Origin: Lingula anatina
Lineage: Eukaryota; Animalia; Brachiopoda
Assembly (NCBI GenBank): GCA_051362555.1
Contig: CM120644.1
Location: 13,414,567 to 13,478,566, forward strand
DNA: 64,000 nucleotides
Direction of reading: 5' to 3'
Part shown: positions 14,800 through 51,066 of the stretch, piece after piece
How the letters are laid out: each line of letters starts with the position of its first letter
Numbering within the stretch: the stretch's first letter is position 1
Made by a program: the position numbers and the translations under genes
The notes under the pieces: model-generated
What the model was told of the DNA's origin: nothing
Seen by the model: only the letters and a program-made list of their open reading frames with translations
Database searches by the model: none

Positions 14800-14859
14800 A
14801 AATATTTCTATTAGTATGAGAAATATAATACTTCTTATAGAAACAAAGTCGTCTTAATT

Positions 14860-20330: not shown

Positions 20331-20331
<1 letters not shown>

Positions 20332-27605: not shown

Positions 27606-28181
27606 CGACTCAAAGTGCCTTTAGGTTTACAGTTAAGGTAGGCAATTCTTGAAAACCAAATAAATAAAATAAAATAGGATAAAATAAAAATTGTCATTAA
27701 AAGCCGTTTTGCCTTCAGCAGGGTATATTACATGCATATTATTAGTAAGACAACAAATTGAATATATATTTGCTACGTGCCACTATGAATTCCATCAATT
27801 AATTATATTACTTAAATGTTGCTATGCCACATTAGTTTTGTTAGTTATCTTACTATATCATTGTTTTCAATAAGTCATGCAATGCCCGAACCAGTTCTCA
27901 CAAGTGCTGTTTTACACTATTCTGCCATGTGTAATCAATGAAATACAACACGGCTGCTCGGAATTATCTAGAATTATTTTTATCTTCCTAATTTCTTACT
28001 CCTGCTTTCTATCTTTATTACTCTCACAGCTTTTAGTTTCCTGATATTTCAGAAAGTATCAAGAGTATTGGACTCGCCTCTCCCAGATCGGGACTATCCT
28101 CTTTCCGACCACTATGGTGTATCTTTGGTAGTTCAGCGCTGTTCCTGCTTCTTGTGGCGGTGGCCATGGAGTAGATGTTGA
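27606..28181 (+). pseudogene. Orphan 3' fragment of an EEP gene A copy (last 32 nt of penultimate exon, intron, last exon 28053-28181)
   Basis: Homologous to 1221-1846. The last exon reads KVSRVLDSPLPDRDYPLSDHYGVSLVVQRCSCFLWRWPWSRC*. Upstream exons are absent. Confidence 0.85.
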
Positions 28182-28950
28182 ACTACCTGTCATTAAATAG
28201 AACGTTCAACAGAAACCGACTTTGGAACTGGAACGTCAACTCTCCAAGCTTACACTCTAAATTTTGGTTAAAGAGACGGAGGGGGTGGGGGGTGTTAACT
28301 GATTTTTTTTATTCTTATCAGAATTTCCACTTTAGTTATCCCAAAGACTGGATGTGCTGTTTATAAACATGGGGTTTATTATATTTAGAATGCAGTTTTA
28401 ACGATACACATGTACCTATAGCGTTTTATTTGGCTGCATGAAGCCAAATAATTCTTTTCGAGAAAGTGATTTTGAATGTGTAATTATATATAACTGATCC
28501 ACACCATGACTGTCGTGTAATTTAAACAAATTCAAGAGACACAATACACAGGAAGGTAAACTTATATGTACATGAAAAGTAATTGTAAGAAAGCTTTTGC
28601 ACAAAATGTTCACAGTTCTGTGGTTCTTTTAATTTCCCGCGTCTTTCTTAGTTATATAAATAGGACTGTTAGTAATATGATACTACAAAGCCAAAAGCGG
28701 GTGAATTTAAGTCGCAACATGATGAAATTAACAAATATCATTAGTACTTTCTATACTTTATTTGGTACATTCCCTAATGGAAATACCTCCTTACTCATAC
28801 ACAAAAAAATACTGTATCCCAATTCTTTATGCCAGGATATTCCTTTAACTCATTTTGACAGTTCCGTTATCCCCTATTTAAGCGGAGCGGTGGACCCCAG
28901 TATGAATATGGTACTTAAGATATGGACATCTGCAAATTTTAGTGCTTTAA

Positions 28951-31415
28951 AGGGTTTGCTTCATGCCGTCAGAATGGCCTGAACGGAACATATTCTTCAG
29001 AAAACATGTCCAACTAACGATATCTTAATCCAAATACACAAATTAAAAGCTCATTTTGTAAATTTTTGGCTTTAAAAAACGTCCTATTTGCTCGGCCTGG
29101 GAGTTAATGAGCTACGTGGTCACGTGGTCCAATGACGACAATCGAGCCACTGGAGAACAGAGCGTGCTTAGCTGTCAAACTGAGCTGCATTGTCTACCTG
29201 TAAGATGACTTCTCTGGCTTCTGATAAAAGTTTATACTCATTCAAATCTCTTACCCGAGGGGTCTAAATCCTCGTGAAGCTGTGTAAAACCATTTCCCGT
29301 CTAGTCATTTCTTTAACAAGCATTTCATTATGGTTATCCCAAGTTGTATAAAACACTGCATTTGAATGAGTTAAGGGAAATGTTGATTATTGCATATGAG
29401 GTCCATGTTATTTGTGAAATTTAATTTATTTTATTAAACCGCTGACACTCCGTCTTGCATACTTTTATTAAACTGAGGTAAACAATGCCCGTTACCTTGA
29501 CAAGTCCTATCTTAATCATCCATCTAACTGGAACTTCCTTTACCTCTTTATTAGAGGGTTAAATGGCATTCAATTTGTCTTGCTTGTATCGAACGCACTC
29601 TCTATCTAAGCTTTACTCCAGTTATCTCAGGTAAAAATCTACCTGTGCGTTAGTTACAAAGCGCAGCTCCCGTAGACCTGGGGGTACTAGATAAAATCTG
29701 AACACCAGGTTTATCGAGGAGCTAGAGAAAGAAAGGAAGAATTTTTCCTGCACAACTTCATAGGAATTTTAACACGGACTTGATCCAGCTTAGACCTCCA
29801 AACTAACAGGGTGACATGGGCAATTTTCACAAACAAATCATAAAACTATATTTCAGTTAACCGCCTTTAAAATAAATATACCGTTCTGGATAAATTAAAA
29901 TAGTTATTAAATCGCAAGAATATTTTTGACTTAAATGATGATTTTATTATTAATGGAAATTAAGCTACTATATGAGGTACATTTGCTGTGATTACGCTGT
30001 CGTTCATGTTTTGCGTAAGTCTACATTTTGCTGTATGTGCTTGTAATCTTTTCAAATATGTGCGTACAATTTTTGCAGGTCTGGTTACCCCCCTGTTATG
30101 TGATGAAAGTATTAATTTGGCAATTAGTTCCTTAGCTTATTTGAATAGAATTGCAGTGTAAAATTTTCAACAAGATGTTGGCCCATTACTCTTTGTAGGT
30201 ATTTCCCCCGTCAAAGTTTGTCTAAAATTATCTTTCAATCTTTACTCTTTCAAAGACAGTATAAAGTTACCTGACATATTTTCGTGTAAACTTAATGACA
30301 AGCCAAGTGTCTCCAGTTCATTCCGTACTCAATTTTACCCAAGCAAATTTTTTTCTTGAGTAGATCTTTATAGCACGGTGTTATAAGCTTACAAATTTGC
30401 AAAAAAAAAAAAAAAAATTGCGTACTGACGCAGAATTTGCGTTTCAAGTTATAAAATGATCAATCTTTTAAATTATTTAATATTTCAGATGAAATAATCT
30501 TCAGAAACAAATCCTCAAAGCATAAACGAATTAGGATAACGAACCATTTTATTATAGCAGTTCCCATTTTTTCTTTAATATAACGCTCTGTTTCCTGTTT
30601 TTCCTCAACACGTTTTCTTCCACGGAAGCTTCAAGATACCCTGAGAGCAATTTCTTTTATTAATGTTCGCGACCGTGTTTGAACTTAATTGTTTAAGTAT
30701 TGATATTTAACGTCATTTACAAATACCAATAAAATAACCCCATGAAATAAATGAGATATATTGAAAAATATGAAAGCCCACCAAGACGAGTTTCATACCT
30801 GTTATTACCTGGCTTGGGAATTGCAGCGGTGCATAATTAACAGGTTTGTTGTAAACGAGCTTTTGGTCAACTACAATGCATTTGAAATGCATCAGCAATC
30901 AGTAAGTTTGCCAACTGATGACAGTTAATCTGAAAGACTACCAGCTCTTGATATGATCTAAACCACCTGAGGTGACCATGATCTAGAGCATCGCAACTAT
31001 TGTCACCGAAGTTAGTAAGTAAGTCACGGAAGACCGTCACAGACAAAGAAAGATTGTCAACGAGAGCTGCAATTTTGCTGAATCCCACGGCAACACACCG
31101 AGGCATAACGAAAATTCCTAAACTCCGTTCAACACAACTTTCCTTAACTTCTCCGTCTGTACAGTATGCACCATGCAGCTCAGTTGAGTCTCATAGACCT
31201 TTATCGTGATTGTCGTCACAGTACCACGTGACCCAGATCTGTTGCTTCATTTTTGCATATTGAGGTGAGGTTTACTAAAACGCTTTTTTTTCTACTAATG
31301 GATTGTTTTTATAATTTTTAAATGGCGGGGATCGATTAAAACATACCTATAGTGTATAGATTGAGTGCTGTATCTTCAAAATTCGAGAAATGGATTTTTA
31401 CATGAACATTGTCCT
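28951..31415. mobile_element. Non-autonomous DNA transposon with TTAA flanks (Kolobok-like)
   Basis: Copy-2-specific 2.46 kb insertion: TTAA|AGGGTTTGCTTCATG ... CATGAACATTGTCCT|TTAA, with imperfect 15-bp TIRs and inverted subterminal GGTCACGTGGT/ACCACGTGACC motifs. No transposase ORF. The superfamily is inferred from TTAA plus AG termini. Confidence 0.65.
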
Positions 31416-32441
31416 TTAAATATTTATTTTTGTGAGATCCGTTAATTTAATGCATCAGACGAGTCATATCTCGGTCATATACTGGTTATCAACAACAGAT
31501 TTGCCATAACGTGATACTAAAATGCCACCCCTTCACTTCTACGGATTTCAGAATTGAATTTTTGATTCAATTACGCTTATATGTTTAACCAAGGTTTTGT
31601 AATCAAACTTTTCCGTCTTGGTGTGAAGTACTACATGTATTAAATTTTATACTACAACCTTTCTCTTTTCGAATGAAATATCGCAGCTGCAGCTGATAGA
31701 CTTCGCCTCGCCAGGTAAATAATCTAATGTGCTGCTTATTTACCTGTAATTCAACTGAGCTTTCAGCTGCCACCAGCTCTGTCGACCTACATGTATTTCT
31801 CTCATTTCTCACCAGGAAACTATTTTGATGACAACTGATCATCATTGTCAGTATTTGTCAGTGTTGTCATTGTGGTCATATAAGGCAACATTGTAGCATT
31901 ACAAATTTACATGTCCAGAGAAATTAAAGGTAAATAATGTCTGATCGGCGTTATATTGGCCAGCGAATGATGAGTGAGGGAAATACGGCTACTATTTATG
32001 ATACCAAATAAATGAAGTAAACTGTTATGGTATCTTGTTTGCCCTGGTAAATCACACGGTTTTGTAATATCTATGTTCTTGGCTTTAACAGTCCCCTGTA
32101 TATATATTTTCTTTACCCACATAACGTTAACGGCTGACGGCTTAGCCAGGAGTGAAAATGCTTGTTCTTTACTTATATATACTGGCGCTTTTGATGGCAT
32201 TATCTTTTTGATTGGATTAAAAAGGTACTATATGTTTATTGCATATGTAACGCAGCTAGATTTACTACAGAGGGAATATATTAATATATCAAACGGGATT
32301 TTATTATTGCCATCTGCTTCAGAAATTGAGCTCTCACGTGAGCTGCGAGATTTTCACGGCGATTTTGTCTGCTGTTTTATTTCCACGAGCTCACAGTTTG
32401 CCCGGGGTGCGGACAGAACGCATGACAGCTGTGACACAGAG

Positions 32442-32738
32442 ATGAAGATGATTTTCAGATGTTATTTTGTGCTGATTGCAATATCTTTCAGAGGAGGCGT
32501 TCTTTCGGCAAGGTACAGCACATTTGAATTCATTTTGTTTTCTTTTTTTCTTATAAATGAATAGCATTATCATATATTCGAGTTGCATACATATATGTGT
32601 ATGTGCACGTCGATGCCATTCTTTTCTGGTACATGTATTGAGCATAATCGTGCTTTTTTTACATGGGCCATAACAAATTAAAACTATTGAAGTATTTTAT
32701 GTCGAGCAATTAAGCTTAGAAATTAGTATTTTAAAATT

Positions 32739-32806
<68 letters not shown>

Positions 32807-34177
32807 GGACAAAAGAAGTGTCACCCCTACTGAGCCAATACTATGGGGGAGATAAATGACTGTGGAATGATATGCTCCTGGTATCATTTTATTAACATCA
32901 AATTTCACAAAAAATCACAAAATGAGAACAAAATATACATTCTACCAAAATATGCAGTTTCAAGTCCAAAATTAGTACTTAGTGGCATAGCCACTTGACC
33001 TAATAATAGGTGCCAGTCTACGAAGCAAGGATTCATATAATTGTCTGATGCGTTCAGGGCTTATGCTGGCCCAAGCATGAAACACTGAATATAACAGAGT
33101 TTCTCTGCTGGTTAGACGGACATTTGTAAAAAGTTTTGACATATCATTCCACACATTTTCTATTATGTTTGCATCCGGACTCTGGGCAGGCCACATCACC
33201 CTGCGAATGTCCTGTTGGTCAAACCAATCATCAACTGCTCTGGGGTTGTGACAAGGAGCATTGTCATCCTGGTGAACAAATGGATAATTCCTGTCACCAA
33301 ACATGTTAGTAATAGGTGGTAGCAAGCCTGACTCCAAAACATCGATATATTTCTAGTGATTCATGTTTCCATTAACCACTATCAATTCGCCCAAGCCATG
33401 GATGCTGATGCAGCCCCACACCATGATGAATATGCTGCTCCGGGTTCGAAAATTCAGTGCATGTGGTTCAAATGCTTAACCAGCAGTTTGCCAGCATAGT
33501 ACCCGTCTGTCATCAGAGGTCAGACCAAAGCGACACTCATCAGAAAAAATATATAGGACCAATTGTCATGAACTGTCTAGTTCCAGATCCTGTTGACCCT
33601 AGTTCACTATAAGTTGCCTGTTTTGTAACGATATAAGAGGTTTCAGACTTGCTACCCTGCTGTACACTCTCTGAGCATGTAACCGACGCCTAGCAATTTT
33701 CACAGACACATTCTTATGTGTGAAATTGTTCCACTGTGTTGTCAACTGACAAGCAGTGTCGAACTTTGACAACCTGGACATCAAAATCAGTCGTCGGTCT
33801 TCACGGATAGTATTTTTTCTTGGACAACCCATCAGAGGCAATTTGTCTCTTGATCCAGTGTTTCTATACCAAGACCAGACCCTCTGCACGGTTCTGACTG
33901 AACAATTCAATTGTATCGATATTCTGACATTGCTTATATTCCGCCTCTTCAGGTTAATAACTTGCACCTATAACTGTTAAATAATTGCCTGTATCTTACC
34001 ATATTGGAGGAAGACAGGAATAACATTTGCTGTACATGTACAAGACCAACAATACAATGCCATGGTATAGCGGTTTTATACTCATTAGTCACATTATAAG
34101 TAGACCAGGCATTATAAGTACCCAAGATCTGCCTACTTTTATTACTCTGAGTTAGGGGGTGACACTTCTTTTGTCCA

Positions 34178-34255
<78 letters not shown>

Positions 34256-37200
34256 GTGTGCCATCTGTCTGTATATATATCGGCACGCTTGCTTTATGCT
34301 TACTTATGAAAAATCAGCTTTATTTAAAAAAAAAAAAAAGTTAACAAATAGTCGCTTTTCATGTTTCTGGGCTTTTATCTGAACTGAATCTGAAAATAAG
34401 TTGAGTAGCTCTGAAGTTACAGTTATTCACAGCGTAGAGTAAGGAATAAAACCTTTTCCTTTTAACCTTATTTTTAGATCAAATATTCGATGGACATCTT
34501 TTAATAAGGGACATTAGAAATAATAACTCAAGATTGATATTTGAATGGAAATCAGTTCCTTGTCAATAGATACTGACAATAAAGGGTACCGGAGAAGATC
34601 AGCATTGGTCAGAATTGTGCCGGAAGTGACGTGTAGCGGTGTAAGACGTAAAGCTGAGTGGTTATTTTTAGCTGGAGGTGAACGGGAGAGAAGACATGGA
34701 CTCGGAGAAAAAAGCAGTTTTTCGAACAACATGGTAAGATGACATTTCTTCTTTACGCATTTTGGACAGGGAATACTTGTAGAAATAATAGGCACATGAT
34801 ATGAAAACATGACACGGAACTTGTTTGTGGCGCTGGCGGTTATATTCAGCATGTATTTCAAAACTAGTTGCCTGCAAATTAACCACGATTTTGCACCTTC
34901 AAGTTCCGTGTCACGTTTTCATATCATGAATCTGCTTTGAACATTGCGTAAAGAAGAAATGTCATCTTACCATGTTGTTTGAAAAACTGCTTTTTTTCTC
35001 CGAGTCCATGTCTTCTCTCCCGTTCACCTCCAGCTAAAAATGATCACTCAGCTTTACGTCTTTCACCACTACACGTCACTTCCGGCACAATTCTGACCAA
35101 TGCTGATCTTCTCCGGTACCCTTTATTGTGCAAGAATGTAGTTCTTAGTATTAACATGATTTATAAATATGTTTCCCGAATGTGTGATCACCCCTAGCTT
35201 TCATTTTTATCCTTTATTTAATGGCAACGCAAACATATATTCATAAAATGGTAATGTTTTCGCATTTACAACACAAATACATGTGGCACACTTGAATCTG
35301 CTTTGTTATGTGTGCATGAATTGAGAGAAGTTTCTAGGGCTAGTATGCTTTCAAAGATTTCGTTTTTACTTAAATATACAACTGAATCATTTAGTTGTTA
35401 GGTGAAAATGTCATTTTAATGACATTTGTACTTTGATTAATACACAAAGTACGAATTTAAAATACTTTTAGTTAAATATTATCACATGAATAATAATCAT
35501 GTATGGTAAATCATTTATAAGTTTACGAATTACGGATTCTAGTTAAATATTATCATATCATATGAAGGATAATTATGAATGGTAAATTATTTACAAATTT
35601 ACAAGTTACGTATTCTCGTGGACCATTTGCACGGTATTCGCGCGCTTATTCTCGTGTTTTTTTTATTTTTTACTCCTCTTTCTCTCCCTTGCTTTTTGGT
35701 TTTGGGGGCATAGCATTAGTTAAATGTATTAGAAATTTTTGAGCTTGAAGATGTGCGTCTCCTTGTTACTACGATGTAAGTGGTCAAATACGCAAGGGGG
35801 CTGCATCGACCACGTATCAAACAGCAATATAAAAATCGGTAAAAAACGTAGCGAAATCATACCAAATCCTACGGATTCACGGCCTCCGTAGCCTCTACGA
35901 TTTTGTCAAGCTGAAACTTTTGACAAATTGTAAAAATTGTAAGCCCGCACGAGCATTGTACGGCAGACTTAAGCCTGGGTCCCAACTCCACGCACGATTT
36001 TCAGGACGTACGTTTTTTAAGCCTCGGTCACAACTGGACGCACGGATTTTGGGTGCAGTGGAGGCTGTGGAGTGCGTAGAGGTAGAGGAAAGTTTCTAAT
36101 GGAAAGGCACAAGTCTGCCTTGCGAAGTGCAGGCCCCACGTGAGAAGCAGGGACGCTAATTGCAAGGTGCTATATACCTTGAGTTTGTCTTGCTACCTGC
36201 ATACGTGGCACGCACTCACCATTTATGAAGAGAATACTACGCACGGCGAAGGTAATTTCCTTTTGCTTCACACTTGCCTCACACGCTTGTATTGACGTAC
36301 TGACCGCGTACGTCATTTTTGCCTCCTGTTCCTCCTTCTTTCTTTTTCCTCCTTCCTTCTTTTCTGTTCTCTTAGCTTCTTCCCCTTGCCATATTAGAAG
36401 CTGAATTGAGCAAAATTCGAATTTTTTTAATGTTGTGCACTAGGCACAAGCGACATTATTTGTCGAGACACGAGCGTGCATCGTGAGCACGCCTTTTATA
36501 CTCCTGGCCTGGGGGCGACGCACTTCCGCTGTGCTTTCAACTTTGTTCGTTAGCTGCGAGGGCGTGCGTCTCGGACCACCGACGACTAGCTTGCATACTT
36601 CTCGCAAACTCCTTGCGAGTGGAGCAAGTTGCGTTTGCGGCCTCACTGTTCGCAGATTATTAGTAGAATCTTTTGGACATGGCCAACATCCTACGTACTT
36701 GCTTAGGGGCTGTCTGCGAACTCCAAATTTCGTAAGAAGAACTTACGCGGCACGTGAGATTCTGTGCAAAATTTGGACGAAAACAGGCTGTAAGAGCCGA
36801 GGCTTTAGGTTCCTCTCGTCTGGCTGGGCCGTGGCTAGATCGTATGGGAGAAATCAAGTAACTGGTGATTGCAATGAGTGCGCAAGAAGAAAGTGCGTGG
36901 AAAGTCCGTGAGAAGCACAGCCTCCGCACGTCAGAAGTACCTCTGCGCCTGACGGGATTTCGCACGTGACCCGCGCGCCCCGTGCATGCAAAGTACAAGG
37001 AATACAGGCAACGCAAAGGCAACGCAAGTAGACGTAGGACAGTCTAGCTGACCTCCTCGTTGCTCGTCCTTTGCACGGGAATCGTACGTGTTGAGATGTT
37101 TTGGGGAAGGTATATGAAACAGTTCATGTGTGAGGAGATCATTATATCCGCAGCAGTGTTCAAAGATGGTGAGCCCAGTCAAACCTGGCTTGTCCCCGAT

Positions 37201-40200
37201 GCCCCTCTCCTCCTCTTGCTCTTTGCTGTCTTTTAAGGCATTTTTGGGAACTTGTCATCAGAAGCAAAAATAATGCTTTTTCGTTCATGCCCCTTCTTTT
37301 AAACTCACGGTCCGTGCGCATGGAGTGACCACTTCTCGCTCAACATGCACGAACCCCGTGAGTTCCACATGTAGTACTTTACACGTCTGCATGTAGTACT
37401 TTTTCCATTTTTAGGGAATTTGTAGACCGCACGCAGCGGCTGTTGATCATGTCGAAAATTTTTTTCTACTTGCTGTGTGCGACCTCCAAAAGTTGCACGA
37501 TGGACGTGCTCCTCACGCACGAAATCCCACGTTTTCCCCAATTTTTGGCCATAGACCAGGCTTTAGGATTATCGTGCAACAATGCAAGGCGATCCTGCGA
37601 CTCGAATGTGTCAAAATTCCCAAGCCAAGATATCGATTGCATTTGTCACGTATGCAGTGTAGATGCTCGTCGTAGCCAATAAACTGTAACCAATGTCAAA
37701 AAAGCTTTTGGACAATCATATTCGATTTCATTGCACGGCGAGCATGACAAATGTAATCTAGCCTTTAGGGAACTAATGCCATAAAAACAGCCCTCCTCCA
37801 ATACACAAAATGTCTTTTTTTCCTCACAGGAAGATAATGAAAACGAAGATTATGACATATAACGCAGGCTTGACAGAAACACATGTACCACAGTACGTAC
37901 ACGTTAATGTTGACTGTTTGCAGTAAAGGTTTTTTTAATACTGTTTATTCATGCATGTTCATGTAGTCGCCGCAAGAATCTTTTCTAACATCTTAATTCA
38001 CCAATGAGGGCCTAAGCTACTTCTTTGTTTAAACTCGCTACTTATTATTATTTTATTATTATTATTATTTACATAACTCTCAGAAGATGATATTTACATA
38101 TTATTACTTTTGTCATTGATTTGAAAGATAAATTGCACCTTTGTTTGCCTAGAGCATTTTAGTCGAAATCAATTGAAATAATGACATAGGTTTGTTTCTT
38201 CAAAATAATTTCACGTAAATTTTTTCAGCTACCAAAATCGTCGCGAAGAGTTTCTCAGAAAGCTCACCAACAACGAGATCCCGGGACATGTCGTCTGCTT
38301 GCAAGAGATATGGAAACCAGACGACGTGGCAGCCATCGTCCAAGCAACCAATACGACTTTCCCATATACCTTCAGTGCGATACACGCGGCTGATGGCACA
38401 TTGGTTCCACCGCCCAGGGTTGCTGCGTGCAAAATTTTGCATGTATAAATTGCACAATTTTTTTTTGCTGACTCTAAACTCACCACACGACAACAAGTCC
38501 CATTCACTATATATTTTGTGCCCCAAAATAACATTTTTGTCCGCATCTTGGCATTCGCGTACGTGAATGACTAATCTCTTATATGCCCGATATACGGACT
38601 TGACATTTTATATGGAATATTTCAGTTTCGAAGGTATGCGTTCTTAAAAAAAAAAAAAATAAATAAAAAAAACACCGATCTCAAATCAGATTTGTGAATG
38701 GAGAAGTGTGAAGTCAGGCGTGTCGTTACCAATTAAATGACTTCCATGTCTGTTGTGCTGCTAAAATGCAGTAATTTAATTGAGTGGTGTCACAGCTTGG
38801 CTTAGGCAAAGGTTGGTTCTATCAAAAAAGTATCCATATAACGGCAACTACTGAATAGAAGAATTTTAAATTTTCCATGCAAGTGGTCAGTTTTGCAGTG
38901 CGTAAAAAAAGCTATGCAGTGCTTTACAAATTTGTTAATCTGTGGCAGAATGGCGCGAAATAGACAGACATTACCAGACATTTTATAGCGCCAAACGGAA
39001 CGGTCCGCACAGTTTTATAGAGTAATGCCCAGGCTAATGTACCCACACAGAGGTCACAACCAATCTATCGAAATCCTACCTCTAGGGTACATGACCCACT
39101 GTCTTTCGGGGCACGCTGCTGCAACTAAACAAAACCACCCAGTCCGTTCAGAACGAGGGGTAAATTGACACAAAAATGCGTTTTTCAAGGCCCTTGGCGA
39201 ACACCAAACTGGCTTTAGCAGGTTAGAATACCAGTCGACCTCCGTGGTACCCACTGTAAACAGCAAAACATCGTCGTCTGTTTCTCTAATGAACCATGGC
39301 CGTTTCTGGGTAGAACACTGAAACCGCGTGGCATTCTTTATTGAGGTCAGTTTTCACCTGTACCGCCCAACTAGTCAAAACAGAGTTTACAGACATCCAG
39401 AAGAGGCCTACGACAAAACAGCAATGGTAGTCATCGACGAAAACCTGAACCAGATCAAATAAAAGAATTATCTGGGAACCACACATGAATACCATTTGAT
39501 AGGGGGCACATTAGGAACAATTTTAGGTTGCACGGTGAGATTACCGGTTCACACAGGGCACTTTTAATAGCAGATAACCGCATACACAATATTTGGGTAG
39601 GCCATTACTCGTCGAATATACGGCCAACATGTCCGACAACAAAACAGGGCCAAAATGGACAATTTTTGACCGATGCCTGGAATGTTATTCCAGATTGAAC
39701 TTTAAAAACCTATCCCAAGGAATGCCTTGTCGCTTGAGAGCGCTGTTTACAGCCAGAAGAGACCATGCGTAACAGCGACCATTACTATGACTACACGCTG
39801 TCATGAGGGTCCTTTGTGGAGCGTGTTACTCTTTTACAGACCATAATTAGGATAATATGGAGATCCAAAATATTTATTTTAATGCATGTCGTATGACATA
39901 GAAAAGGCAATGTACATGTATTTGTGTTTGCTTCACTGTCGAATTCAGTCAATGAACTGATGTCAACATGACATCAAAGAGATAATTTAAAGTTATTAAA
40001 ACACGATTTTAATCCTTATTTTCATTTATCAGCCAGAAAAATAGGAATAAACTGATGAAAAATGATTTGGAAAAAAAAAACATTCCATATTAAATGTCAA
40101 GTCTGTAAATCATGCAATCTGCACATTCTCCCTTTTCAGAGATAACTTGAAGGTAGCTTGCAGTGTAATATGTATGTTTCTGCCGTCACTGCAGGGCAAT

Positions 40201-40662
40201 TAAAAAAACTCGGATTCTGTCCACTGAACGAACAGCTAACCAAACAACAATGAATCACGAGTCAATCGCTTGCATTCCAGATGAATCTTTTGTGGCACTG
40301 CATAAAGAGACACCGTATCCATATCCATAAGTTCCTCCTCCTCTCCGCTGCCATTACGTGCAGGTTCGTGCTCAGCGCTGTTCCCCATCGGTGTCGTGAC
40401 TGTGTGACAGCCGGCATGGAATACAGCGCCTCCAGTAACACCACTGCTGAAACCTTGAAGGAGCGCATGAGGGTTTGTCTGAGTACGCCGTGGCAGACGA
40501 CCTATGGACTGCTGATCCTAAGTAAGATGCCGCTTCTAGATTCGATAGTAGTTGACTACCACCCTGATACCCCACTTTTCATTCCAAGGGCTTATCTCCA
40601 TTCAAAAGTAAGCTTGTTTAATTTTATCAGTCGTTTTTTGTTTGTTGTTGTTGTGCAAAAAT

Positions 40663-40698
<36 letters not shown>

Positions 40699-43208
40699 GC
40701 GTACCACGAAAAATAAATTTAAACTCTGCACAAATTAGGATTAGGTTCTAGTTTTGATATGTTATGATCATTCTTACCACATCTAGGTTTTGGTAATCAA
40801 TGTCAAGTTGTGATGAATAGCAGTCATATTCATTAAGAAAATTAAACTGCGAAATTATGATACCTCGATTCCGACGATATATAATCGGGTTGAAGAAACC
40901 TTTCCAATCTGTTGTAAAGTTAGTCGAACAGCCACGGTAATCTCACTATTGACACTATTCATACAATATACAGTGTATGTACGTGTTCTTTTTAACAATT
41001 GCATATTAACTGTCGGTATACTTCATTCTCTTTTTAGATTGGATCATGGCACTTTTTCTGCACTCATTTGACCGGCGAACTGAGCGACGCAGCTTATGTA
41101 GACGGTATGACTGAGATTTGTTTTTGTTTAAAGTTATAATAAAATCAATTCCATAATTAATTAGTTGATTTTTTTTACCAGGATGAATGACCAGTTTCGA
41201 ATACTAGTACTGTTACTTCAGACCTTTTGGCCTGTGTCATTATGTCTATGTAATTAGGATTCCCCATAGGGGAATATTATTGTTTTTGCTGTTCTTCTTC
41301 TTCTTCTTTTTCTTCTTATTTTTCGTCAAAAAAATTATTTTTAAAATGCTGAAAAAATTCCTGCTGATAGCCTAAAAGTTATTCCGGATTACCCAATTTC
41401 ATTGACCTTGACCTAATTTTCAAGGTCACAGAGCCTTTTAAAATGAAAACTTTGCAAATTTAAAAATGCAATATCTCCTAGAATTTTCAATATTTTAACA
41501 AATCCTTTCATATGTGAGTTTTCAAGGTCACAGGGGCATTTAACGACGAAATTTTTAAAATTTGAAATTGCAATTACGCCTTAAGTGTAAGCTATGTGGC
41601 TAAGGACCTTTTGGCAAATAATCCCCAAATATTGACCAACTTTCATACAAGTAGTTCGCTAATGGCCAAACTGCCATAAAACAGTTTTTTCCCATATCTC
41701 AAAAACCGCGAGGAAGTATAGTCTTATCTATAAAGTTAGCTGAACTTTCGTAGCGATTGCATGATACCTTTTTTAAATACAGATTTTAAAATATTTATGA
41801 TGTTGCAGAAATCGTGACTTTGGCAATTTCTCCATGAAATACTGATTTTTTTTAAACATGCTATAGTAAACTATCCCAAACCTATACCCAACATCCCCAA
41901 ATCAAATGTCAAATCTGACCTTGGCCTTCAATTTAGAGGTTATTTGGACATTTCAAGGTGACATATTCACTTGGGCTAAAACTGATGTATTGTTGACCCA
42001 CCTCCCCTAATCCACATACGCTCTTTCAGAATACGGGATCAGATTTAGCACATGGCCTTTTAATTGACCTTTTTCTTCAAGGTCATTCCACCCCTAGTGT
42101 GCAGGGGAATCCTCCGCCACTGGCTTCAGGCAGTTACGGTCTAGTTATATTTAATACTGATTGCTCACAAATATGTACAGGTACACATGTACATATCTTT
42201 GTTATTGCATGTATAACGAGCCCGGTAATTATAAACCAATGTGTTTTTTAAAAAAAGGAGTAGGCGTGTGCTATAAACAATTGTAAACGTGCATATTTAG
42301 CGATTCTATGTGTATTTCCCCCGTCATAATGGATATCACCACGCGCTGCTCAATGTACACTTTGCACTTGTACCGGTACGAGTTTGTGGTGAAGCATACC
42401 TTGTACGTACATGTATAGTATAATTTAAGCGACACACACAACATGTAGTGTCAGTATCACTCCTCTATCACGCCTTTCGTTGGATGGTCGAAGATTGGCA
42501 GTGTTTTCTTAAGTTATGGCAGACTATAGTCGAACTCCTTAGCATGATATTTTGATGATTTTGGTGTTGTGAACGGTGCTTCTTTTCATTCGGCAGACAT
42601 GCTAGATTCAGCACACATGGAGGAGGAGGAGACTATTCAAATTATCGTGGTTCGTCACTGTTTATAGCATGCCCACATAACCGTTATGTTTTCAGAGGGA
42701 ACATGGAAATTACATTTTCACTCTCTGCAGATGCTGGCATTTTTATTAGATTAGTAATCAGATAATTTCTGGTGCTTTGACTGCTTGAAAATGGCCGATA
42801 TGTCTCATTTTTTCAACTGGCGGCCATGCAATGGGTACTTTTGAGACAATACCTTAACTGAAATAATAATTACCAAATACACTGTATGTCTATTCACGTA
42901 TGATAATCCTGTGGCCTATTTTATAGCAAGATAAATCCACACTGGTCCCCTAAAATAAAGAAAGCATTTATCCAAAACATTATCCATGTCTTTCTTGCAA
43001 TAAATGAATGATAAATATTGATCATTGTAAATAAATAATTATAAATAAAGTGGACGTGATGTTTAATATCATTCAACTACTTGTCCATTTTCCCCATTGT
43101 GAAATAGGCTCTTGCTTTTCAATTGAAAGTTTATGCCCACATACACACTATTTGGGTAAAAAGGTAGATGGCTTTTCTGCGGGTTAATGGATGCAGCTAA
43201 GAGCAGTG

Positions 43209-43276
<68 letters not shown>

Positions 43277-44434
43277 TACTGAATTCAGTGTCTCTGATAT
43301 TCTCTTAACATTATTTATTTAGACTGAAATGAGTTACTGGCTTCTTTTAATTTGACTTGATTCTAAGGTTATTATCATGTTTATGTGGTCATGGCTCTTA
43401 GATCCCGCTGCTCCCTGCAATTAAGACTGCTGTGATTGAAAAAATATGGGTCGGGGTCAGAGAAAGGGCTCGGCTCCTATCCCTCCTCCCTGCTACTATG
43501 TTTATTATACGTTATTCAAAATGGGGAGCATATACCATGTCATGTAATTCTTTCTTTTCAGTTGGACCTTTCAGAACCGTAAACAAACAGAATTTGTACC
43601 AAACTGGTACTCTGCTGAAAGCTGCCAACCGGTTTTTGCCCCGTGTCGTTTTGGCTGGTGATTTCAACGTCGGGAAAGCCGTTCATGACGACAGTGTATC
43701 AAGCATGCTACTAAATTCCTACAAGCTTCTCACCCAGAACTTCGAGACTCGTTACGTGAACTGCACGTATTGTGGCACAAACCAGCTTGCTAACTCACCG
43801 AATTACAGTTTTGCTATTGACCACGTGTTTGTACCAATTTCAGATAATCCCAACACAACATTCTTTACGATCGAGGTTGGTATAAATCTCTTGCATCAGC
43901 AGAAACAAAATGAACGTATTTGAAGTAGTTATAAGATTTTTCCCGATTTTTATATTGGTATTGAAAATATTAATATAGTTTTTATCTGCCATAACGTTGG
44001 GACCATCCTTAAACTGCCTCGTTTTCCTTAACACCCACCCTCTTGGGATATACATGTATATATAGGCACCTTGTATTTCAGAAGGGAAACCGCACTGGTA
44101 ATTCTCTCATTTTCTAGCACACTTACGTTCTGGGGCACCCGTGTCTTAACGTCCATAGTTAAAGCTACTAGGACAGAAACAATCATTGACTGCATTTTTA
44201 TACCATTTTCCTCATCAAATTAAATGAAACAATATATATATCCGCCTAATAGTTGTCACTTAATTTTCCTTATTAAATGAAACTAACATTTGTTTGTACA
44301 TGTATGTTAAGGTATGTATGTATTATTTTCAGACTGCGTCGATAGAATTGGACGGCAAAGTGCCTGGCCAAGATTACTGCATGTCAGACCACTCTGCATA
44401 CCTAATGACTTTTGAGGTTCGTTACACAGGCTAA
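32442..44434 (+). CDS. Secreted EEP-family protein with Cys-rich insert, duplicate gene B' (7 exons, 385 aa)
   Basis: Exons 32442-32512, 37830-37892, 38229-38442, 40281-40607, 41038-41104, 43562-43875 and 44333-44434 are GT-AG and total 1158 nt with an open frame. All EEP motifs are retained. The exon 3 donor is weak (CAT|GTATAA) and the polyA hexamer has changed to AATACA. Confidence 0.82.
32803..34180 (-). mobile_element. Tc1/mariner (DD34E) DNA transposon, full length but inactivated
   Basis: 25-bp perfect TIRs CACTGGACAAAAGAAGTGTCACCCC, flanked by (TA)n. Absent from the homologous site (~4840) in copy 1. Confidence 0.95.
32972..34002 (-). pseudogene. Tc1 transposase pseudogene
   Basis: HTH-like N-terminal ORF (33599-33967), then SDECRF and QDDNAPCH...WPAQSPDANIIENVW, with 34 residues between D and E. 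In-frame stops (e.g. ~33355) and a frameshift near the 5' end. Confidence 0.9.
34581..35124. mobile_element. Foldback MITE with ~180-bp terminal inverted repeats
   Basis: 34581-34759 is nearly the reverse complement of 34945-35124 (AAAGGGTACCGGAGAAGATCAGC...). The empty site is at ~5170 in copy 1. Confidence 0.9.
35810..37710. mobile_element. Degenerate DNA-transposon remnants in intron 1 of gene B' (longer version of 5760-6980)
   Basis: Two tandem terminus-like motifs (AAGCCTGGGTCCCAACT ~35971, AAGCCTCGGTCACAACT ~36019). About 800 bp here is missing from copy 1. Confidence 0.35.
38593..40107. mobile_element. Non-autonomous DNA transposon (~1.5 kb) in intron 3 of gene B'
   Basis: TIRs TACGGACTTGACATTTTATATGGAAT ... 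ATTCCATATTAAATGTCAAGTCTGTA. Absent from intron 3 of gene B. Superfamily not determined. Confidence 0.75.
41254..42145 (+). mobile_element. HINE-like element, duplicate in intron 5 of gene B'
   Basis: Near-identical to 8952-9851. Confidence 0.65.
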
Positions 44435-45983
44435 TACAGCATACCCGCCGAAGATGTATGTGCTACTGTACAAGGCCGGGCGACATGGTTCTACACACAA
44501 AATTTCAGGCACCACCTAGAGTGTGTAAGCCTATAAGCCGGTGATGCAATGAGAACCTTTCCTGTGGGGTATACCATATTATTCAGAATTATTTTGCGAT
44601 ATGTTGATTTCCTCCTGTAACAATGTTTATTTACACGGCATAATTTAAACCTAACATACGTGGTGTAAGTTGCATCTTAATATTCGCTGTATTTTCGATT
44701 ATTTTGGTTTGGATAGGAATGTATCTACTCTAGTCTAGAAAGATTTTATGGGTGAACCTAGACAACATTGCAGGATTTTTTTCGCCATGCATTTCCCGGT
44801 GCCCCAAAGCGTCATACGAGAGTCCCAAGGAAGTCCTGCATGGGAAACACGAAAAACGACGGCCAACAAGCGTACAAATGTACATATGATATTGCCTCAT
44901 TCCATTACTTCAGCACAATTATGCACTAGGATTGTGTCTGTATGTATCCCCTTGTTGTTTAAAATCATACTGATGTCGTTTTATCAATATCAACTGACCA
45001 CCAGAAAAATCACATTTCCAGCAATTTGGCTTAAATATAGAATTATTTCACCTTTCAGACATACTGTTGAGGTCATTAAAAATCCCAGATGTTTTTGCTG
45101 GTGTAGATACCAACAATGCATTTATATGCGTCTTTTGAACTTATACAAGTAGATGGTTTAACAAGATGGGCACCGTGCCTGGTAGATAAATAGAACAGCT
45201 ATCGAATATTGAGATATAGTATACTCCATTCAATTTTGGAATTTTCATGTTTCCTATAGAGGGATTCAACTGGGCTAGGCTTTATTATGTTGATTGGGAG
45301 GCTTCAGGGTGATGCAAGGTGAAAAGATATATTCTGTTACAATTTTGTACAGGTCAAACAGTATTTTGGCTGAACTAATCATTGTGGTGGTCATTGTGGA
45401 TTTATAAATATGGTGATTAGAAAAAAAGCATTTTATTTCATTTCGACAACAAAAAAGTAATTATGGAAATCAGAATAGCTGGCGCATTTTATGCAATAAT
45501 CTTTCGGGTGAATAAATCAATATTCCCAGCTTGAAGATTGGTGTTGTGTATTTTTATATTCTTAAAGAAACAAAAAATTACTTCAGTTGCTACATGTATG
45601 ATGTAGACGAGATGATTCCATCGTTTGTCCTTTTGCAGATACATTCCGCTGATGCAATTGGTCGCAGGGAGGATTTATAAAATACTGCAATTTTCTGGCC
45701 CAGACATTACCCAAATAATATTATTCAACACGATTCAATGTAATCTACTAAATTCATTTCTTTTATAAAAGTGACCTTACAAATTTCGAGGATCATACTT
45801 GTATTTAACAAAATGTCCTTTTTTTAACGCTTTCGAGTGAGTAAACGAGGAGATAAATATTGGTGTTTGACCTTGTCCGAAACCTCGCAGACGTTAAATC
45901 TTTCAGGTAACAGTAAAATCCGTAAATATTTCAATTAGTATGAGAAATATAATACTTTTTATAGAAACAAAGTCGTCTTAATT

Positions 45984-47195
45984 CTGTTCTCAGGTGTGCT
46001 TTTTGACAATCTTTAAAGCAGAAATTGGGGGCTTTAAAGAAGTGATCCGGGTGCGTTTCCACATTTTTATGAATGACAGGTGTGGTAGATTGATTTTAGT
46101 CACATTTCGGAAAAATCGGAGACGGGTCGATCCTGGGTGGTTTTGATTGATTTTCATAGGGGCTAGATATGGCAGTTTTCGTCAAATTTGACCAAATAGG
46201 GAAGAAAAAAAATTGTTCTTCATTATAGTGATCAGGAGGTTTGTTTGGTCATTTGTAGTGAGAGTAAAGTACTGGAAGACTGGCTGTGTCATTATTAAGG
46301 CAGAAATTTAGCAAAAACTCTTCCTACCCCCCCCCCCCCTCTTCAAATCCTGTTCTCAGGTGTGTTTTTGAGCCATCTTAAAAGCTGAAATTGTTGGCTT
46401 TAATGAAGTGACCCGGGTGCGTTTCCACATTTTTTATGAATGACAGGTGTGGTAGATTGATTTTCGACACCTTTTTGGAAAAATCGGAGACGGGTCGATC
46501 CTGGGTGATTTTAGGTGATTTTCATAAAGGTCGGATAGGGCAGTTTTCTTCAAATTTGGCCAAATAGGGAAGAACATTTTTTTCTTCATTATGGTGATCA
46601 GGAGATTTGTTTGGTCATTTGTAGTGAGAGTAAAGTACTGGAAGACTGGTTGTGTAATTTTAAAGGAAGAAATTTAGCAAAAACTCTCCCCACCCCTCCC
46701 CTCTCCAAATCCTGTTCTCAGGTGTGCTTTTGAGTCATCTTTAAAGCTGAAATTGGGGGCTTTAATGAAGCGATCAGGGCGCGTTTCCACGTTTTTTATG
46801 AATGACTGGTGTGGTAGATTGATTTTCGACACATTTTGGAAAAATCAGAGACGGGTCGATTCAAGGTGATTTTGAGTGATTTTCATAATGGCCGGATATG
46901 GCAGTTTTCTTCAAAAAATTGTTTTCTTCATTATAGTGATAAAGATGTGTGTTTGGTTATTTTAGTGAGTGCAAAGTACTGGAAGAGTGGTTGTGTCATT
47001 ATTAAAGAAGAAATAGAGCAAAAACTCTCTCCACCCCCCTCTCTCCAAATCCTGTTCCCAGGTGTGCTTTTTGGTCATCTTTAAAGCTGGAATTGGGGGC
47101 TTTAATGAAGTGATCCGGGCGTCACGTTTTGCAGAAATCGGAGACGGATCTATTCTGGGTGATTTTGGGTATTTTTGACAAGGGCCGTTCATAGT
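45984..47195. repeat. ~360-bp tandem repeat, ~3.4 units (copy 2)
   Basis: Unit starts at ~45985, 46351, 46713 and 47053. Confidence 0.9.
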
Positions 47196-50100
47196 TTAAT
47201 CGATATTAAAACAAGTTCATTTTTTCGGGAGGGGGGATACCTATTAATCGATAAAATATCAACAATCACATAATTTCTCTGGTGTTGAGTTTTGTGGCAG
47301 TAATATATTAAAAAATATGAAATATGAAAGTATGCATGACAGAAGGGACATGTATAATATTTGTTGATTAAAGCGGTGTATTTTAACAACTAGTGGTGTC
47401 AAATCTACGTGTACATGTACACCAGGGGTGGATCCAGGATTTCTTAAAGGGGGAGGGGTCCGGTTTTGTTACGTGTTAACCCCTTTGGCGTTAGGTTAGG
47501 GGCATGCTCTAGGGCCCAGTAAAAATTTGGTGTTTTAGAGGGCAAATTGCACGCATTTAGAACTATTATTCAGCTAGACATTTTGGTACGGTTTTTGTAA
47601 ATCAGAAATCGAAGGGGAGGGTCCAGACCCCCCCTGCCACCCCCCTAAATCCGCCAATGTACATGTATTTGACCGGGAACATTCGTGAACAGTTTCAACC
47701 ACAGTAGCGGATTTAGGGGGTGTCAGGGGACCCTCCCCTTCGACTTCTGATTTACAAAAATCGTACCAAAAACGTCTAGCTGAATCATAGGTCTAAAACA
47801 CCAAATTTTTTCGGGACCCTACTAGAGCGTGCCACTGTACATGCATTTGACCGTGAACATTCGTCTACAGTTTCAACCACAGTCCCTCACCTAAAATGAG
47901 CCATACCTGTCTTTAATTTGCATAACAATAACTTGCTCATTGTAGTGAGAGCTGTCTTCCCGAATGCTCACTAGACAGTAGGACACAGCAGGATGCAGAC
48001 GCAACAGCATGTGTGGTGCAGTCGCAAGGGCGAGCATTTATGAGGTGTAGAAGCAAGTGCATGCTTCGTAAGTATTACTTTTTCTTCAGTGATCTATGAC
48101 ATTAGATGGAAAAAGCGTAGAAGAATGCAAGAAAAATTTACGACAAGTATTTATGTTACAACTCTTTGTTATACTTTGCCTGCCGTTTCTGTTACTCAGT
48201 ATGTATATGCCTATATTAGCTAGCAAATGAGTACATGTAGATGGGCATATATATATTACTTTAAAGATCACGGACTATTTTAGGTGATAATAGTAATACC
48301 ATTCTTGTCACAGTTCTGAATTTTTGACCCATCAACGTGTACACAAACTTAATGGTCAAAGTTTATCAAAAATTAAACGTCTCCTTTTACGACAATCAGG
48401 ATAGTTTAAAAAGAAATAAAATACCCCTTTGATTTAAATTATCTTATGGTTACTTTTGTCTCTTTGAAGTTTCATTTCATTTCTTTAATTCAGTTTTTGT
48501 AGGTTTGTTTATTTTATTATAAACGTACCCGTAAAAATGTTTGTAAGCTATGTTGAAAAACGGGAAATTTGATAAAGAGGAATATGTCCCCCAAACGTGT
48601 GATGCATAGCGATTTTAGATATTACAACATTAAAATAAATCACTGTCCCTAGTTACCTCCACAAGTTAAAGAAATGTGGTCAGTGTTTATTTTTTTTCAA
48701 AGCATGATATCTCAAATACCTTTATCATTAACTTGAGGTCTTAATTTTGACGTAACGTAACCTTGATGTCGATTGCTTTTTTTATGTACAGACACAGATG
48801 TGTCTGTAAATATTGCCGTCACCTGCGTCTGTCGTCGTCACTTCCACCGATAACACGATAAGTGGAAAACCATTTTACTGTTTGGCTTGAAATTTGAAAG
48901 ATCTGATGAATATTTATAATCCATAGGTCAAGTTCGAAAATCAGCATGATCGGGGTATTTTTTCAAAAGTTATGCTGTTTTTTTTTTTTTTTTTGCTTTC
49001 TTCAGCATATATGCAATACTGATAACACAATTCAAGGAAGCTGATAAGCCTATTGTTTTGCAACTCACAGGAGTGATCAATCTTACTAAAATACAGGTTG
49101 GGTTTGAAAATCAGCTTGATTGATTCAGTTTTAGTGAAGTTATGACATTTTTTGTATATGGGTGTTTTTTCCTCAGATTTAATTCTAAGGCATGTTAACA
49201 GTCTCATTATTGAACTAAAAGATACGTAAAAGTGTTCTTTTGACATTTTCTGCATCTTAACAACATTGTTAGTTGATTATATAAAAATGTCAAAAAATGT
49301 CAAAAAATGGAAATAAACTCAGTTTGGCAGATTCAATCATTCACTATGTTCAGAATCTCAGAATAGAGCAAATTGGACATTTAAAATTGTTCTATTGAAA
49401 TTTTTCCTATGCCAACAATTATCTTAGTTGATCATATAAACATGACAGTAAATTGGTCATTTTGCTTTATGTAAAAAACGTGTTGAAAATGGAAAGAAAT
49501 GCATTTCAGTAGGGGTCAGTCTATAATTGTCCCCTGGGTAATTATTAGCTATGTTCACTTGCCTAATTAAGTTTCAAGTGGCCATTAAATGAGATTTCAT
49601 AAAACACATGTTGAGATTTCCCTGTAAACTCCCATCAGTTTAGCTCTCTGCCAGATACAGTTTGTGAAAGTCTGAATTGTTTGCGTCGTGTAATTAATTA
49701 TCGGGGATAATTATGCAGGTAAATATTGTTTAATATTGCAAATAAGTTTGCAGAAGAAAAAAAACTTTTGTAATGTAATGCCAATATTAACGCTATAGAT
49801 GAATAACAGTGCTTTATTATCCTCAAACTCAATGGAGTTATTAATGTCATGTTAATACAGCTGGATTCAAAGTTCGAATAGCAGCTTTATTGGTATTTAT
49901 ATATTTTTTTTCTTTTCTAATTTTTTTAATTATTATTTTTCAAACACTGACATTTTCAAATGTGACTTAACTCCAATCCACCTGGCCCTGGTTTCAGAAA
50001 AAAACTTCAGTTTCCTGGCTTAGTTGACTAGGATTTCAAGAGAGTGCTTTTACACTGCTCCCCGTAGGGTAAGATGTGACCATATAACCTTGGTAATTAA

Positions 50101-51012: not shown

Positions 51013-51065
<53 letters not shown>
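50575..51065 (+). mobile_element. L2/CR1-group LINE 3' end (copy 2)
   Basis: Duplicate of 19850-20330. Confidence 0.8.

Positions 51066-51066
<1 letters not shown>

What the first reader, a model, noticed from the sequence alone, without database searches (positions are those of the whole stretch)
38404..40478. Hypervariable disulfide-rich cassette inside a conserved secreted EEP enzyme: the exon diverges faster than its intron
Seen (hand counts): between B (7723-7761 and 8102-8299) and B' (38404-38442 and 40281-40478), 38 of the first 66 codons of exon 4 and 8 of the last 13 codons of exon 3 change amino acid, with no stop or frameshift. Only 5 of the 66 codons differ silently only. In the first 31 codons of exon 4, 37/93 nt differ (~40%), against roughly 10% in the ~170 nt of intron just upstream. 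The GDFN/IDH exon encodes identical protein. The variable stretch coincides with the Cys-rich insert between the QE and GLLILSK motifs. Established: exons outpacing introns on a Cys scaffold is the pattern of conotoxins, venom enzymes and host-pathogen or gamete recognition proteins. Inference: this is a secreted nuclease/phosphodiesterase-fold effector with a diversifying specificity module, possibly an undescribed defence, toxin or recognition system.
Basis: partly seen in the sequence, partly recalled or inferred. Interest (0 to 1): 0.88.

Follow-up and report, generated by a model that had tools for sequence, protein, structure and literature searches.

The report
Rewired, decaying duplicate of brachiopod enzyme
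In a brachiopod, the second copy of a likely secreted enzyme gene carries one unusually changed patch, but that copy has lost two otherwise near-invariant cysteines and its sampled RNA starts from an unrelated upstream exon, so it is likely a broken or repurposed duplicate, not a toxin-like variable module.

Summary
The counts are exact, and the patch is the highest divergence peak in a 25-kb tandem duplication in Lingula anatina. The reading as a diversifying cysteine cassette is not borne out for B'. dN/dS over the insert is 1.08 (P=0.82); in its hottest part silent sites change as fast as replacement sites. B' has lost Cys128 and Cys138, an inferred disulfide pair kept in 144 and 146 of 146 aligned relatives. 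The insert is an old 8-cysteine helical domain shared with molluscan, sponge, protist and myxobacterial EEP proteins. It is not polymorphic: a second B allele is identical over it, and B' differs by at most one base in four runs. New here: B' exon 4 is transcribed, but 13 of 13 reads crossing its acceptor come from an unrelated upstream exon, not exon 3, whose donor is crippled. That RNA lacks the signal peptide and two metal-site residues and opens on a gained ATG. Most likely: a conversion-homogenised duplicate with a divergence island, now a truncated chimera. Past selection on the insert, or a new leader peptide, is not excluded.

The parts
4524..12127 (+). Gene B, intact 7-exon EEP gene (384 aa): exons 4524-4594, 7089-7151, 7548-7761, 8102-8425, 8736-8802, 11255-11568, 12026-12127
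   Evidence: differs at 6 of 384 residues from NCBI XP_023933056.1 (P0001, Lingula anatina)
7723..7761 (+). B: start of the 8-Cys insert (codons 104-116, Cys112), end of exon 3; donor has the exon-end G
8102..8299 (+). B: rest of the 8-Cys helical insert (codons 117-182)
32442..44434 (+). Gene B', tandem copy with open reading frame on paper (385 aa): exons 32442-32512, 37830-37892, 38229-38442, 40281-40607, 41038-41104, 43562-43875, 44333-44434
38404..38442 (+). B' end of exon 3: 15 of 39 nt and 8 of 13 residues changed; not covered by B'-identical RNA reads in X11
38440..38448 (+). B' exon-3 splice donor lacking both the exon-end G and intron +5 G; read-through meets a stop at the second codon
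   Evidence: the other 11 of 12 donors of B and B' have at least one of the two
38584..40116 (.). High-copy element with 39-nt terminal inverted repeats inserted in B' intron 3, absent from B
40281..40373 (+). B' exon 4 hottest stretch: 37 of 93 nt changed, gained ATG at the first codon, Cys128 and Cys138 lost, rich in His/Lys/Arg followed by a hydrophobic run
40374..40478 (+). B' exon 4 second half of insert: dS 0.10, dN/dS 2.75 (P=0.15)
17339..17368 (+). 3' end of an unrelated exon (X) with a canonical donor, upstream of B'; likely source of the exon spliced to 40281 (2 mismatches to the read consensus)
48038..48067 (+). Second copy of the exon X end, downstream of B' (1 mismatch to the read consensus)
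43562..43875 (+). B' exon 6 (GDFN, IDH motifs), identical to B at all 314 nt
1196..26218 (+). First unit of the tandem duplication (tail of paralog A, gene B, exon X)
27583..56958 (+). Second unit (remnant of A, gene B', exon X); 6-25% diverged up to about 40835, mostly 1-2% after it

Best explanation
B' is a tandem duplicate of a likely secreted EEP phosphodiesterase gene whose insert region likely escaped gene conversion and drifted from the family's disulfide constraint, and whose sampled RNA is now a 5'-truncated chimera that would not encode an active enzyme. Steps: (shown) a 25-kb unit was duplicated in tandem, which put a copy of an unrelated exon X upstream of B'. (Inferred) exchange between the units kept most of the gene alike, while codons 104-182 and the transposon-bearing intron 3 were left as an older island. 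(Shown) in that island silent and replacement sites changed at similar rates, and B' lost Cys128, Cys138 and the consensus of its exon-3 donor. (Shown, two samples of one study) exon X is spliced to B' exon 4, then exons 5 and 6. (Predicted) any product starts at the gained ATG of exon 4 and lacks the signal peptide, two core strands, Asn35 and Glu71. The intact copy B most likely works as an extracellular Mg-dependent phosphodiesterase of the sphingomyelinase/TDP2 structural type, with the insert as a disulfide-stapled helical cap that tolerates much change (substrate untested).
For: ML dN/dS 1.08 over codons 104-182 (P=0.82 against 1); 0.77 with dS 0.72 over 104-147; changes by codon position 16/17/19; a model with the intron rate of 0.11 and high dN/dS is rejected at P<1e-4. 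At least 11 silent steps are unavoidable in those 44 codons, on about 30-35 silent sites (hand count). Cys138 146 of 146, Cys128 144 of 146 rows; co-loss pairs 157-182 (29 rows) and 123-143 (3 rows). B is much closer to paralog A than B' is (28 of 67 against 11 of 41 identities). RNA: 45 of 45 X11 reads and 18 of 21 X12 reads are 99% or more alike B'; loose ends at 40281 are exon X in 8 of 8 and 5 of 5 reads; X11 has depth 0 on exon 2 and on the exon-3 end. Donors lacking both conserved G occur in 6 of 1,990 human introns (PMC8283771, section 18). Exchange between copies: 0 of 314 nt in exon 6, 0.9-1.6% over most of the 3' block; P0001 has the B insert but B'-type residues at 211, 212 and 215. 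B' exon 7 has 5 replacement and 1 silent change, including Phe to Ser next to the catalytic His.
Against: No insertion or deletion among 72 changes in 79 codons, while introns 2 and 3 show 13 gap openings for 74 changes (A/T runs inflate this): the frame seems to have been kept by selection. The 174-nt intron piece inside the island differs at only 9.8%, like introns 1-2, which fits a true age near 0.10 and exon-specific acceleration; its edge coincides with the exon edge. Codons 148-182 give dN/dS 2.75 (not significant). The two lost cysteines are one inferred pair, and the change is directional (net charge +1 to +8, 0 to 6 His). Only 5 RNA runs were laid, 6-26% of each, and only 2 carried B' reads.
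Confidence: 0.52

Rival explanations
1. One reading: selection drove the B' insert apart in a full-length enzyme (a cationic, His-rich surface for a new membrane or substrate) and protected it from conversion, as in red/green opsin exon 5; full-length B' is made in tissues not sampled, or was until the donor decayed.
For: Peak edges at the insert start and at the exon-4 edge; frame intact; paired cysteine loss; the same cationic trend in exon 3 and exon 4; X18 variant with 14 replacement and 2 silent-only codons of 48 (hand count); selection-kept peaks raise all sites in an exon (PMC3924837, passages).
Against: dN/dS not above 1; the lost pair is kept by essentially all 146 aligned relatives; the Lys116His change itself removes the donor G; 0 of 13 acceptor-crossing reads come from exon 3; almost no polymorphism.
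Confidence: 0.22
2. B' is a young functional chimeric gene: the first 33 residues of exon 4 were remodelled into a new leader (signal or mitochondrial) peptide for a catalytically dead 269-residue product under the exon X promoter.
For: Gained ATG at the first codon of the exon that the RNA uses; basic, acid-free start followed by a hydrophobic run; in a neutral simulation with the same 37 changes: ATG 4%, net Lys/Arg of +4 9%, best 15-residue hydrophobicity 4%, jointly about 1e-5, features chosen after seeing the sequence.
Against: Best 11-residue hydrophobicity 1.78 is below B's own helix (2.44) and below five native leaders (2.36-3.05); two out-of-frame ATGs lie just upstream in exon X and the ATG context is weak; the untranscribed exon-3 end is equally diverged; the product would lack two core strands.
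Confidence: 0.13
3. A local, exon-focused mutational burst (as proposed for conotoxin mature exons) hit codons 104-147 of B' on a 10% background.
For: Changes even across codon positions, 20 transitions to 32 transversions; flanking intron at 9.8%; no better template for the patch in the window or among five known paralogs; conotoxin mature exons show dN and dS both at 0.34-0.68 (PMC3862624, section 22).
Against: Seen on one branch only; alleles of B and B' are nearly invariant there, so no ongoing process; no mechanism shown.
Confidence: 0.08
4. B and B' are two haplotypes of one locus placed in tandem by the assembly.
For: The 3' block differs by 0.9-1.6% over most of its length, like the reported heterozygosity of 1.6% (PMC4595640, passage); no B' protein was found in the collection.
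Against: A poly(A), sense-strand splice from exon X to exon 4 without own-promoter RNA needs X upstream in cis; X3 contigs show two B-type tails plus B'-type pieces (weak).
Confidence: 0.05

Closest known systems
EEP superfamily (Pfam PF03372); structural neighbours human nSMase1 8j2f, Bacillus cereus sphingomyelinase 2uyr/2ddr, TDP2
   Same: Fold (Z 22-24, rmsd 2.5-3.1, 224-250 aligned) and catalytic set Asn35, Glu71, Asp280, Asn282, Asp370, His371 in B.
   Different: Only 14-19% identity; carries an 8-Cys helical insert of about 70-80 residues after the QE motif; substrate unknown; the sampled B' RNA lacks Asn35 and Glu71.
Uncharacterised 8-Cys-insert EEP proteins of Myxococcota, molluscs, the sponge Oscarella and Rhodelphis
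   Same: Cys spacing 10-4-(7 to 10)-4-10-2-n and core motifs; 540 clusters at E<=0.001.
   Different: B' is the only sequence seen without the Cys128/Cys138 pair (two rows scored non-Cys at 128 keep a nearby Cys).
Divergence peaks in converting tandem duplicates (red/green opsin exon 5; Drosophila CG18281/CG17637)
   Same: An exon-bounded peak amid homogenised flanks (PMC3924837, PMC2588116; passages read).
   Different: There both copies work and the fixed sites are known; here one copy appears mis-spliced, and a transposon in the middle of the peak can also block conversion.
Chimeric genes from tandem duplication (Drosophila, PMC4069613)
   Same: The duplication places a foreign 5' exon upstream of a gene copy and a fused transcript results; about 10% of gene-capturing duplications there.
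   Different: The fusion is made by skipping three intact-looking exons over 23 kb, not at the breakpoint.
Conotoxin precursors
   Same: One exon region with dN and dS both several-fold above the rest, behind a conserved leader (PMC3862624, section 22).
   Different: Framework cysteines lost in B'; two copies, not many; near-zero allelic variation; an internal domain of a 384-residue enzyme, not a released peptide.

Membership tests
EEP superfamily PF03372 (gene B) | Score above the Pfam gathering threshold | tested here: met
   P0001 29.8 bits against 24.5
EEP superfamily PF03372 (gene B) | DNase I-like sandwich fold and catalytic Asn, Glu, Asp-x-Asn, Asp-His | tested here: met
   model pLDDT 89.7; Z up to 24.3; residues in 139-145 of 146 rows
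Active EEP enzyme (B' as transcribed in X11, X12) | mRNA includes exons 2-3 with Asn35 and Glu71 | tested here: not met
   13 of 13 acceptor-crossing reads come from exon X; X11 depth 0 on exon 2; other tissues untested
Neutral sphingomyelinase C | Family-level sequence match | tested here: inconclusive
   top structural rows are SMases and TDP2, within about 2 Z of each other, at 14-19% identity; no NCBIfam cut-off reached; no PDB sequence hit below E 0.3
Neutral sphingomyelinase C | Hydrolyses sphingomyelin | not testable with these tools
   needs an assay
Conotoxin-type hypervariable cysteine module | dN and dS both raised in the variable region | tested here: met
   dN 0.40-0.42, dS 0.31-0.37 against 0.04 and 0.05-0.06 in codons 1-103
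Conotoxin-type hypervariable cysteine module | Cysteine framework kept | tested here: not met
   B' lost Cys128 and Cys138; the X18 variant keeps those it covers
Conotoxin-type hypervariable cysteine module | Many alleles or near paralogs with different loops | tested here: not met
   P0001 equals B at all 79 insert residues; B' exon 4 has 0 differences in X2, X11, X12 and 1 of 260 nt in X3; one further variant in X18
Conotoxin-type hypervariable cysteine module | Sites with dN/dS above 1 | tested here: inconclusive
   pairwise only: 1.08 (P=0.82); 2.75 in codons 148-182 (P=0.15); site models need more sequences
Selection-kept divergence peak under gene conversion | Tandem copies with signs of exchange and a local peak | tested here: met
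Selection-kept divergence peak under gene conversion | Peak sites shared by orthologs of a second species | not testable with these tools
   no genome held; no B' ortholog found
Chimeric gene from tandem duplication | Spliced transcript joining a foreign upstream exon to the copy | tested here: met
   8 and 5 reads in two samples of one study, canonical donor and acceptor
Chimeric gene from tandem duplication | Translated, selected product | not testable with these tools
   needs ribosome profiling or proteomics

The most novel reading that the evidence does not exclude
B' is a newborn chimeric gene in which a disulfide-stapled internal helix of an ancient enzyme was rewritten into an N-terminal targeting peptide: the copy shed its leader and catalytic N-terminus by crippling a donor, adopted a duplicated foreign promoter exon, gained a start codon at the first base of exon 4, and was selected for a basic-then-hydrophobic leader.
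Probability: 0.13. Interest if true: 0.72.

Novelty: new member of a known kind. Interest (0 to 1): 0.36.

Why it matters
As it stands it is a clear case of how an exon can out-diverge its intron without proof of adaptive diversification, and of a duplicate whose protein on paper is not the one its RNA encodes. It also flags an uncharacterised extracellular EEP subfamily with a four-disulfide insert that runs from myxobacteria to sponges, molluscs and brachiopods. If the new-leader reading held, it would be a traceable case of a targeting peptide arising from a folded domain; if past selection held, it would point to the insert as the specificity surface of this subfamily.

Tried and rejected
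Horizontal transfer from myxobacteria into Lingula: the first search gave only bacterial relatives, but the tree puts 4 Lingula rows in a 36-row group where 6 of 10 rows looked up are molluscan, 1 sponge, 1 has a protist-transcriptome member and 2 name no organism; no transfer claim is made. Conversion patch from a known paralog: B' is further from A than B is and all five other Lingula rows keep Cys128 and Cys138; unknown paralogs are not excluded, as no genome is held. Compensating frameshifts or a local template: none. Circular RNA from the 48-kb exon: disfavoured (poly(A) library, no own-promoter reads in X11), not excluded. Structured RNA: 0 Rfam hits in the window. A single-sequence model of B' exon 4 was uninformative (pLDDT 48). 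The insert was not folded alone, so its fold family is untested. No RNA holder was listed by the index; runs X14 and X17 gave no reads on the B' hot stretch, which says nothing on expression since those animals may lack B'. The protein atlas did not complete. A planned simulation of stops, indels and charge over the whole insert returned nothing; hand counts replace part of it. Earlier findings: three look-ups returned nothing.

Full report
Setting. The window is a tandem duplication, 1196-26218 against 27583-56958. Each unit holds the tail of one EEP paralog (A) and a seven-exon gene, B or B'. A search with B exon 4 gave 1 hit among 82 candidates, NCBI XP_023933056.1 of the brachiopod Lingula anatina (P0001), which differs from B at 6 of 384 residues. 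No genome is held for the window.

The observation. Over 21,619 aligned columns the start of exon 4 gives the four highest of 1076 windows (37% at the top; median 2%). Context changes its meaning. The units differ by 6-15%, with non-coding peaks of 23-25%, up to about 8560/40835, and mostly by 1-2% after it (introns 5 and 6 0.9% and 1.3%, downstream 1.6%, one stretch 6.9%), close to the 1.6% heterozygosity reported for the species (PMC4595640, passage seen). Exon 6 is identical at all 314 nt, so it shows recent exchange, not conservation. The 5' part of intron 3 differs at 20% with 4 gap openings, and a 1.5-kb high-copy element with terminal inverted repeats sits in B' intron 3, in the middle of the peak.

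Selection test. Counting gives dN 0.40-0.42 and dS 0.31-0.37 for codons 104-182 (Fisher P 0.18-0.44). A codon likelihood model gives dN/dS 1.08 (P=0.82 against 1); for codons 104-147, 0.77 with dS 0.72; for 148-182, 2.75 with dS 0.10 (P=0.15). Forcing the intron rate (0.11) on 104-147 is rejected at P<1e-4; differences fall 16/17/19 on the three codon positions. By hand, at least 11 silent steps are unavoidable in those 44 codons, on 30-35 silent sites, about three times the intron level. So the patch is hot at all sites. That does not by itself break the conotoxin analogy: conotoxin mature exons also show dN and dS together at 0.34-0.68 (PMC3862624, section 22 read). It is also what is described for converting duplicates, where selection or an inserted element blocks exchange locally (PMC3924837 and PMC2588116, passages).

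What the insert is. A profile-free search of 1.84 billion representatives gave 540 hits at E<=0.001, of which the best 150 were listed. Of 160 proteins then held, 146 were aligned (14 left out, mostly multi-domain or partial). The insert's cysteine spacing is shared with myxobacterial proteins. In a FastTree tree of 162 rows the four Lingula rows form one group inside a 36-row group; of 10 rows looked up there, 6 are molluscan, 1 is a sponge, 1 has a protist-transcriptome member, 2 name no organism. Cys112, 138 and 154 are present in 146 of 146 rows and Cys128 in 144; Cys157 and 182 are lost together in 29 rows, Cys123 and 143 in 3. By elimination and by the predicted helical hairpin (helices 114-127 and 135-142; model pLDDT 89.7), 128-138 and 112-154 are the other pairs (inferred). 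B' has lost exactly Cys128 and Cys138. The whole protein passes the PF03372 cut-off and matches neutral sphingomyelinases and TDP2 at Z 22-24 and 14-19% identity. The substrate is unknown; an extracellular metal-dependent phosphodiesterase is the inference from fold, motifs and leader.

Which copy moved, and is it variable? B exon 4 matches paralog A at 28 of 67 residues, B' at 11 of 41. A third, B-like transcript in run X18 agrees with B at 16, with B' at 2 and with neither at 7 of the 25 residues where B and B' differ in codons 133-180; it differs from B at 14 of 48 codons with 2 silent only and keeps its cysteines (hand count; pieces come from 7 and 4 reads). Within copies it is nearly invariant: P0001 equals B at all 79 insert residues; B' exon 4 shows no difference in X2 contigs or in X11 and X12 reads, and 1 of 260 nt in X3. 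P0001 carries B'-type residues at 211, 212 and 215, a mosaic that points to exchange.

Transcription. Five RNA runs were laid (6-26% of each read). In X11, 45 of 45 reads on 40110-41200 are 99% or more alike B'; in X12, 18 of 21. Exon 4 is spliced to exon 5 (15 and 5 reads) and exon 5 to exon 6 (5 and 3). All reads that cross the exon-4 acceptor, 8 of 8 and 5 of 5, continue into a sequence that is not exon 3 but matches 17339-17368 (2 mismatches) and 48038-48067 (1 mismatch), each followed by a canonical donor. In X11 exon 2 and the end of exon 3 have depth 0. The B' exon-3 donor lacks both the exon-end G and the +5 G, alone among the 12 donors of the two genes; 6 of 1,990 human introns do so (PMC8283771, sections 12 and 18), and read-through stops at once. 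The simplest reading is a linear transcript from the upstream copy of exon X that skips B' exons 1-3; the 30 letters cannot tell the two X copies apart. X11 and X12 are two samples of one study; tissue is unknown. X14, X17 and X18 carry no B'-type hot stretch, which is no evidence on expression.

What such an RNA would make. Exon 4 of B' opens on ATG where B has ATC. A product would be 269 residues, without leader, two core strands, Asn35 and Glu71: predicted inactive. Its first 33 residues are basic, free of acids and then hydrophobic. In a neutral simulation each feature alone has probability 0.04-0.16 (His-inclusive charge 0.001), jointly about 1e-5, but the features were picked afterwards; hydrophobicity (1.78) is below B's own helix (2.44) and five native leaders (2.36-3.05), and a stop-free outcome has probability 0.37. 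Two out-of-frame ATGs precede it. The new-leader idea stays open at low odds.

Against the best explanation. No indel among 72 changes, against 13 gap openings for 74 changes in introns 2-3, suggests the frame was under selection while the island diverged. The 9.8% intron piece inside the island and the sharp exon edge fit exon-specific acceleration on a 10% background. The cysteine loss is paired and the charge shift (+1 to +8, six His) spans both exons. A phase of selection on a full-length B' is therefore a serious rival (0.22).

Literature. The top-15 listings of two searches showed no paper on this EEP subfamily; the main text of the Lingula genome paper has 0 occurrences of nuclease, phosphodiesterase or sphingomyelin; its supplements, which include a shell proteome, were not read and could list these genes. 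Chimeras from tandem duplication are common in Drosophila (PMC4069613, passages). PMC11732430 was seen as an outline only. The roles of EEP catalytic residues and of signal-peptide regions are recalled knowledge.

Verdict. A real, exon-bounded divergence island in a tandem duplicate that has lost a family-wide cysteine pair and is expressed, where seen, as a truncated chimera. Each element is of a known kind; the combination and the subfamily are undescribed in what I searched. Interest 0.36.

Noticed in passing
window 32975-33967 (- strand): Tc1/mariner transposase remnant (DDE_3 E 5e-9; HTH_Tnp_Tc3_2 E 2.6e-6) in an insertion in B' intron 1, flanked by (TA)n runs.
   Followed up: partly
window 1-1846 and 27583-28181: 3' part of paralog A (exons 4-7; NCBI LOC106164278 models it with two exons skipped) and a remnant of its last exons at the start of the second unit; A ends in an unusual Cys/Trp-rich tail.
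   Followed up: partly
window 16720-17180 and 47500-47890: Palindromic MITE-like element directly upstream of both copies of exon X; it may supply the promoter.
   Followed up: partly
window 17301-17368: One frame of exon X in the first unit reads as a short open frame from an ATG whose stop would overlap the exon-4 ATG after splicing; the second copy has a stop in that frame.
   Followed up: no
window 57492-59175 (- strand): Exons with calcium-binding EGF domains (EGF_CA E 9.4e-11) of a neighbouring gene on the opposite strand.
   Followed up: no
window 14860-16457, 45984-47121, 21400-21937, 52082-52655: Tandem arrays of about 360-nt and 34-nt units with different copy numbers in the two units.
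   Followed up: no
window 38281-38324 (run X11): About 250 RNA reads from more distant paralogs touch the conserved CLQEIW motif, so other family members are far more abundant than B' in that sample.
   Followed up: no
P0011 (Rhodelphis limneticus): A 2106-residue protein with five tandem EEP domains, each with the 8-Cys insert, then four EGF domains and a likely membrane helix.
   Followed up: partly
window 40531-40536: B' has one more codon than B after the GLLILSK motif, matching the length in paralogs A, P0012, P0013 and P0015: here B is the derived copy.
   Followed up: partly
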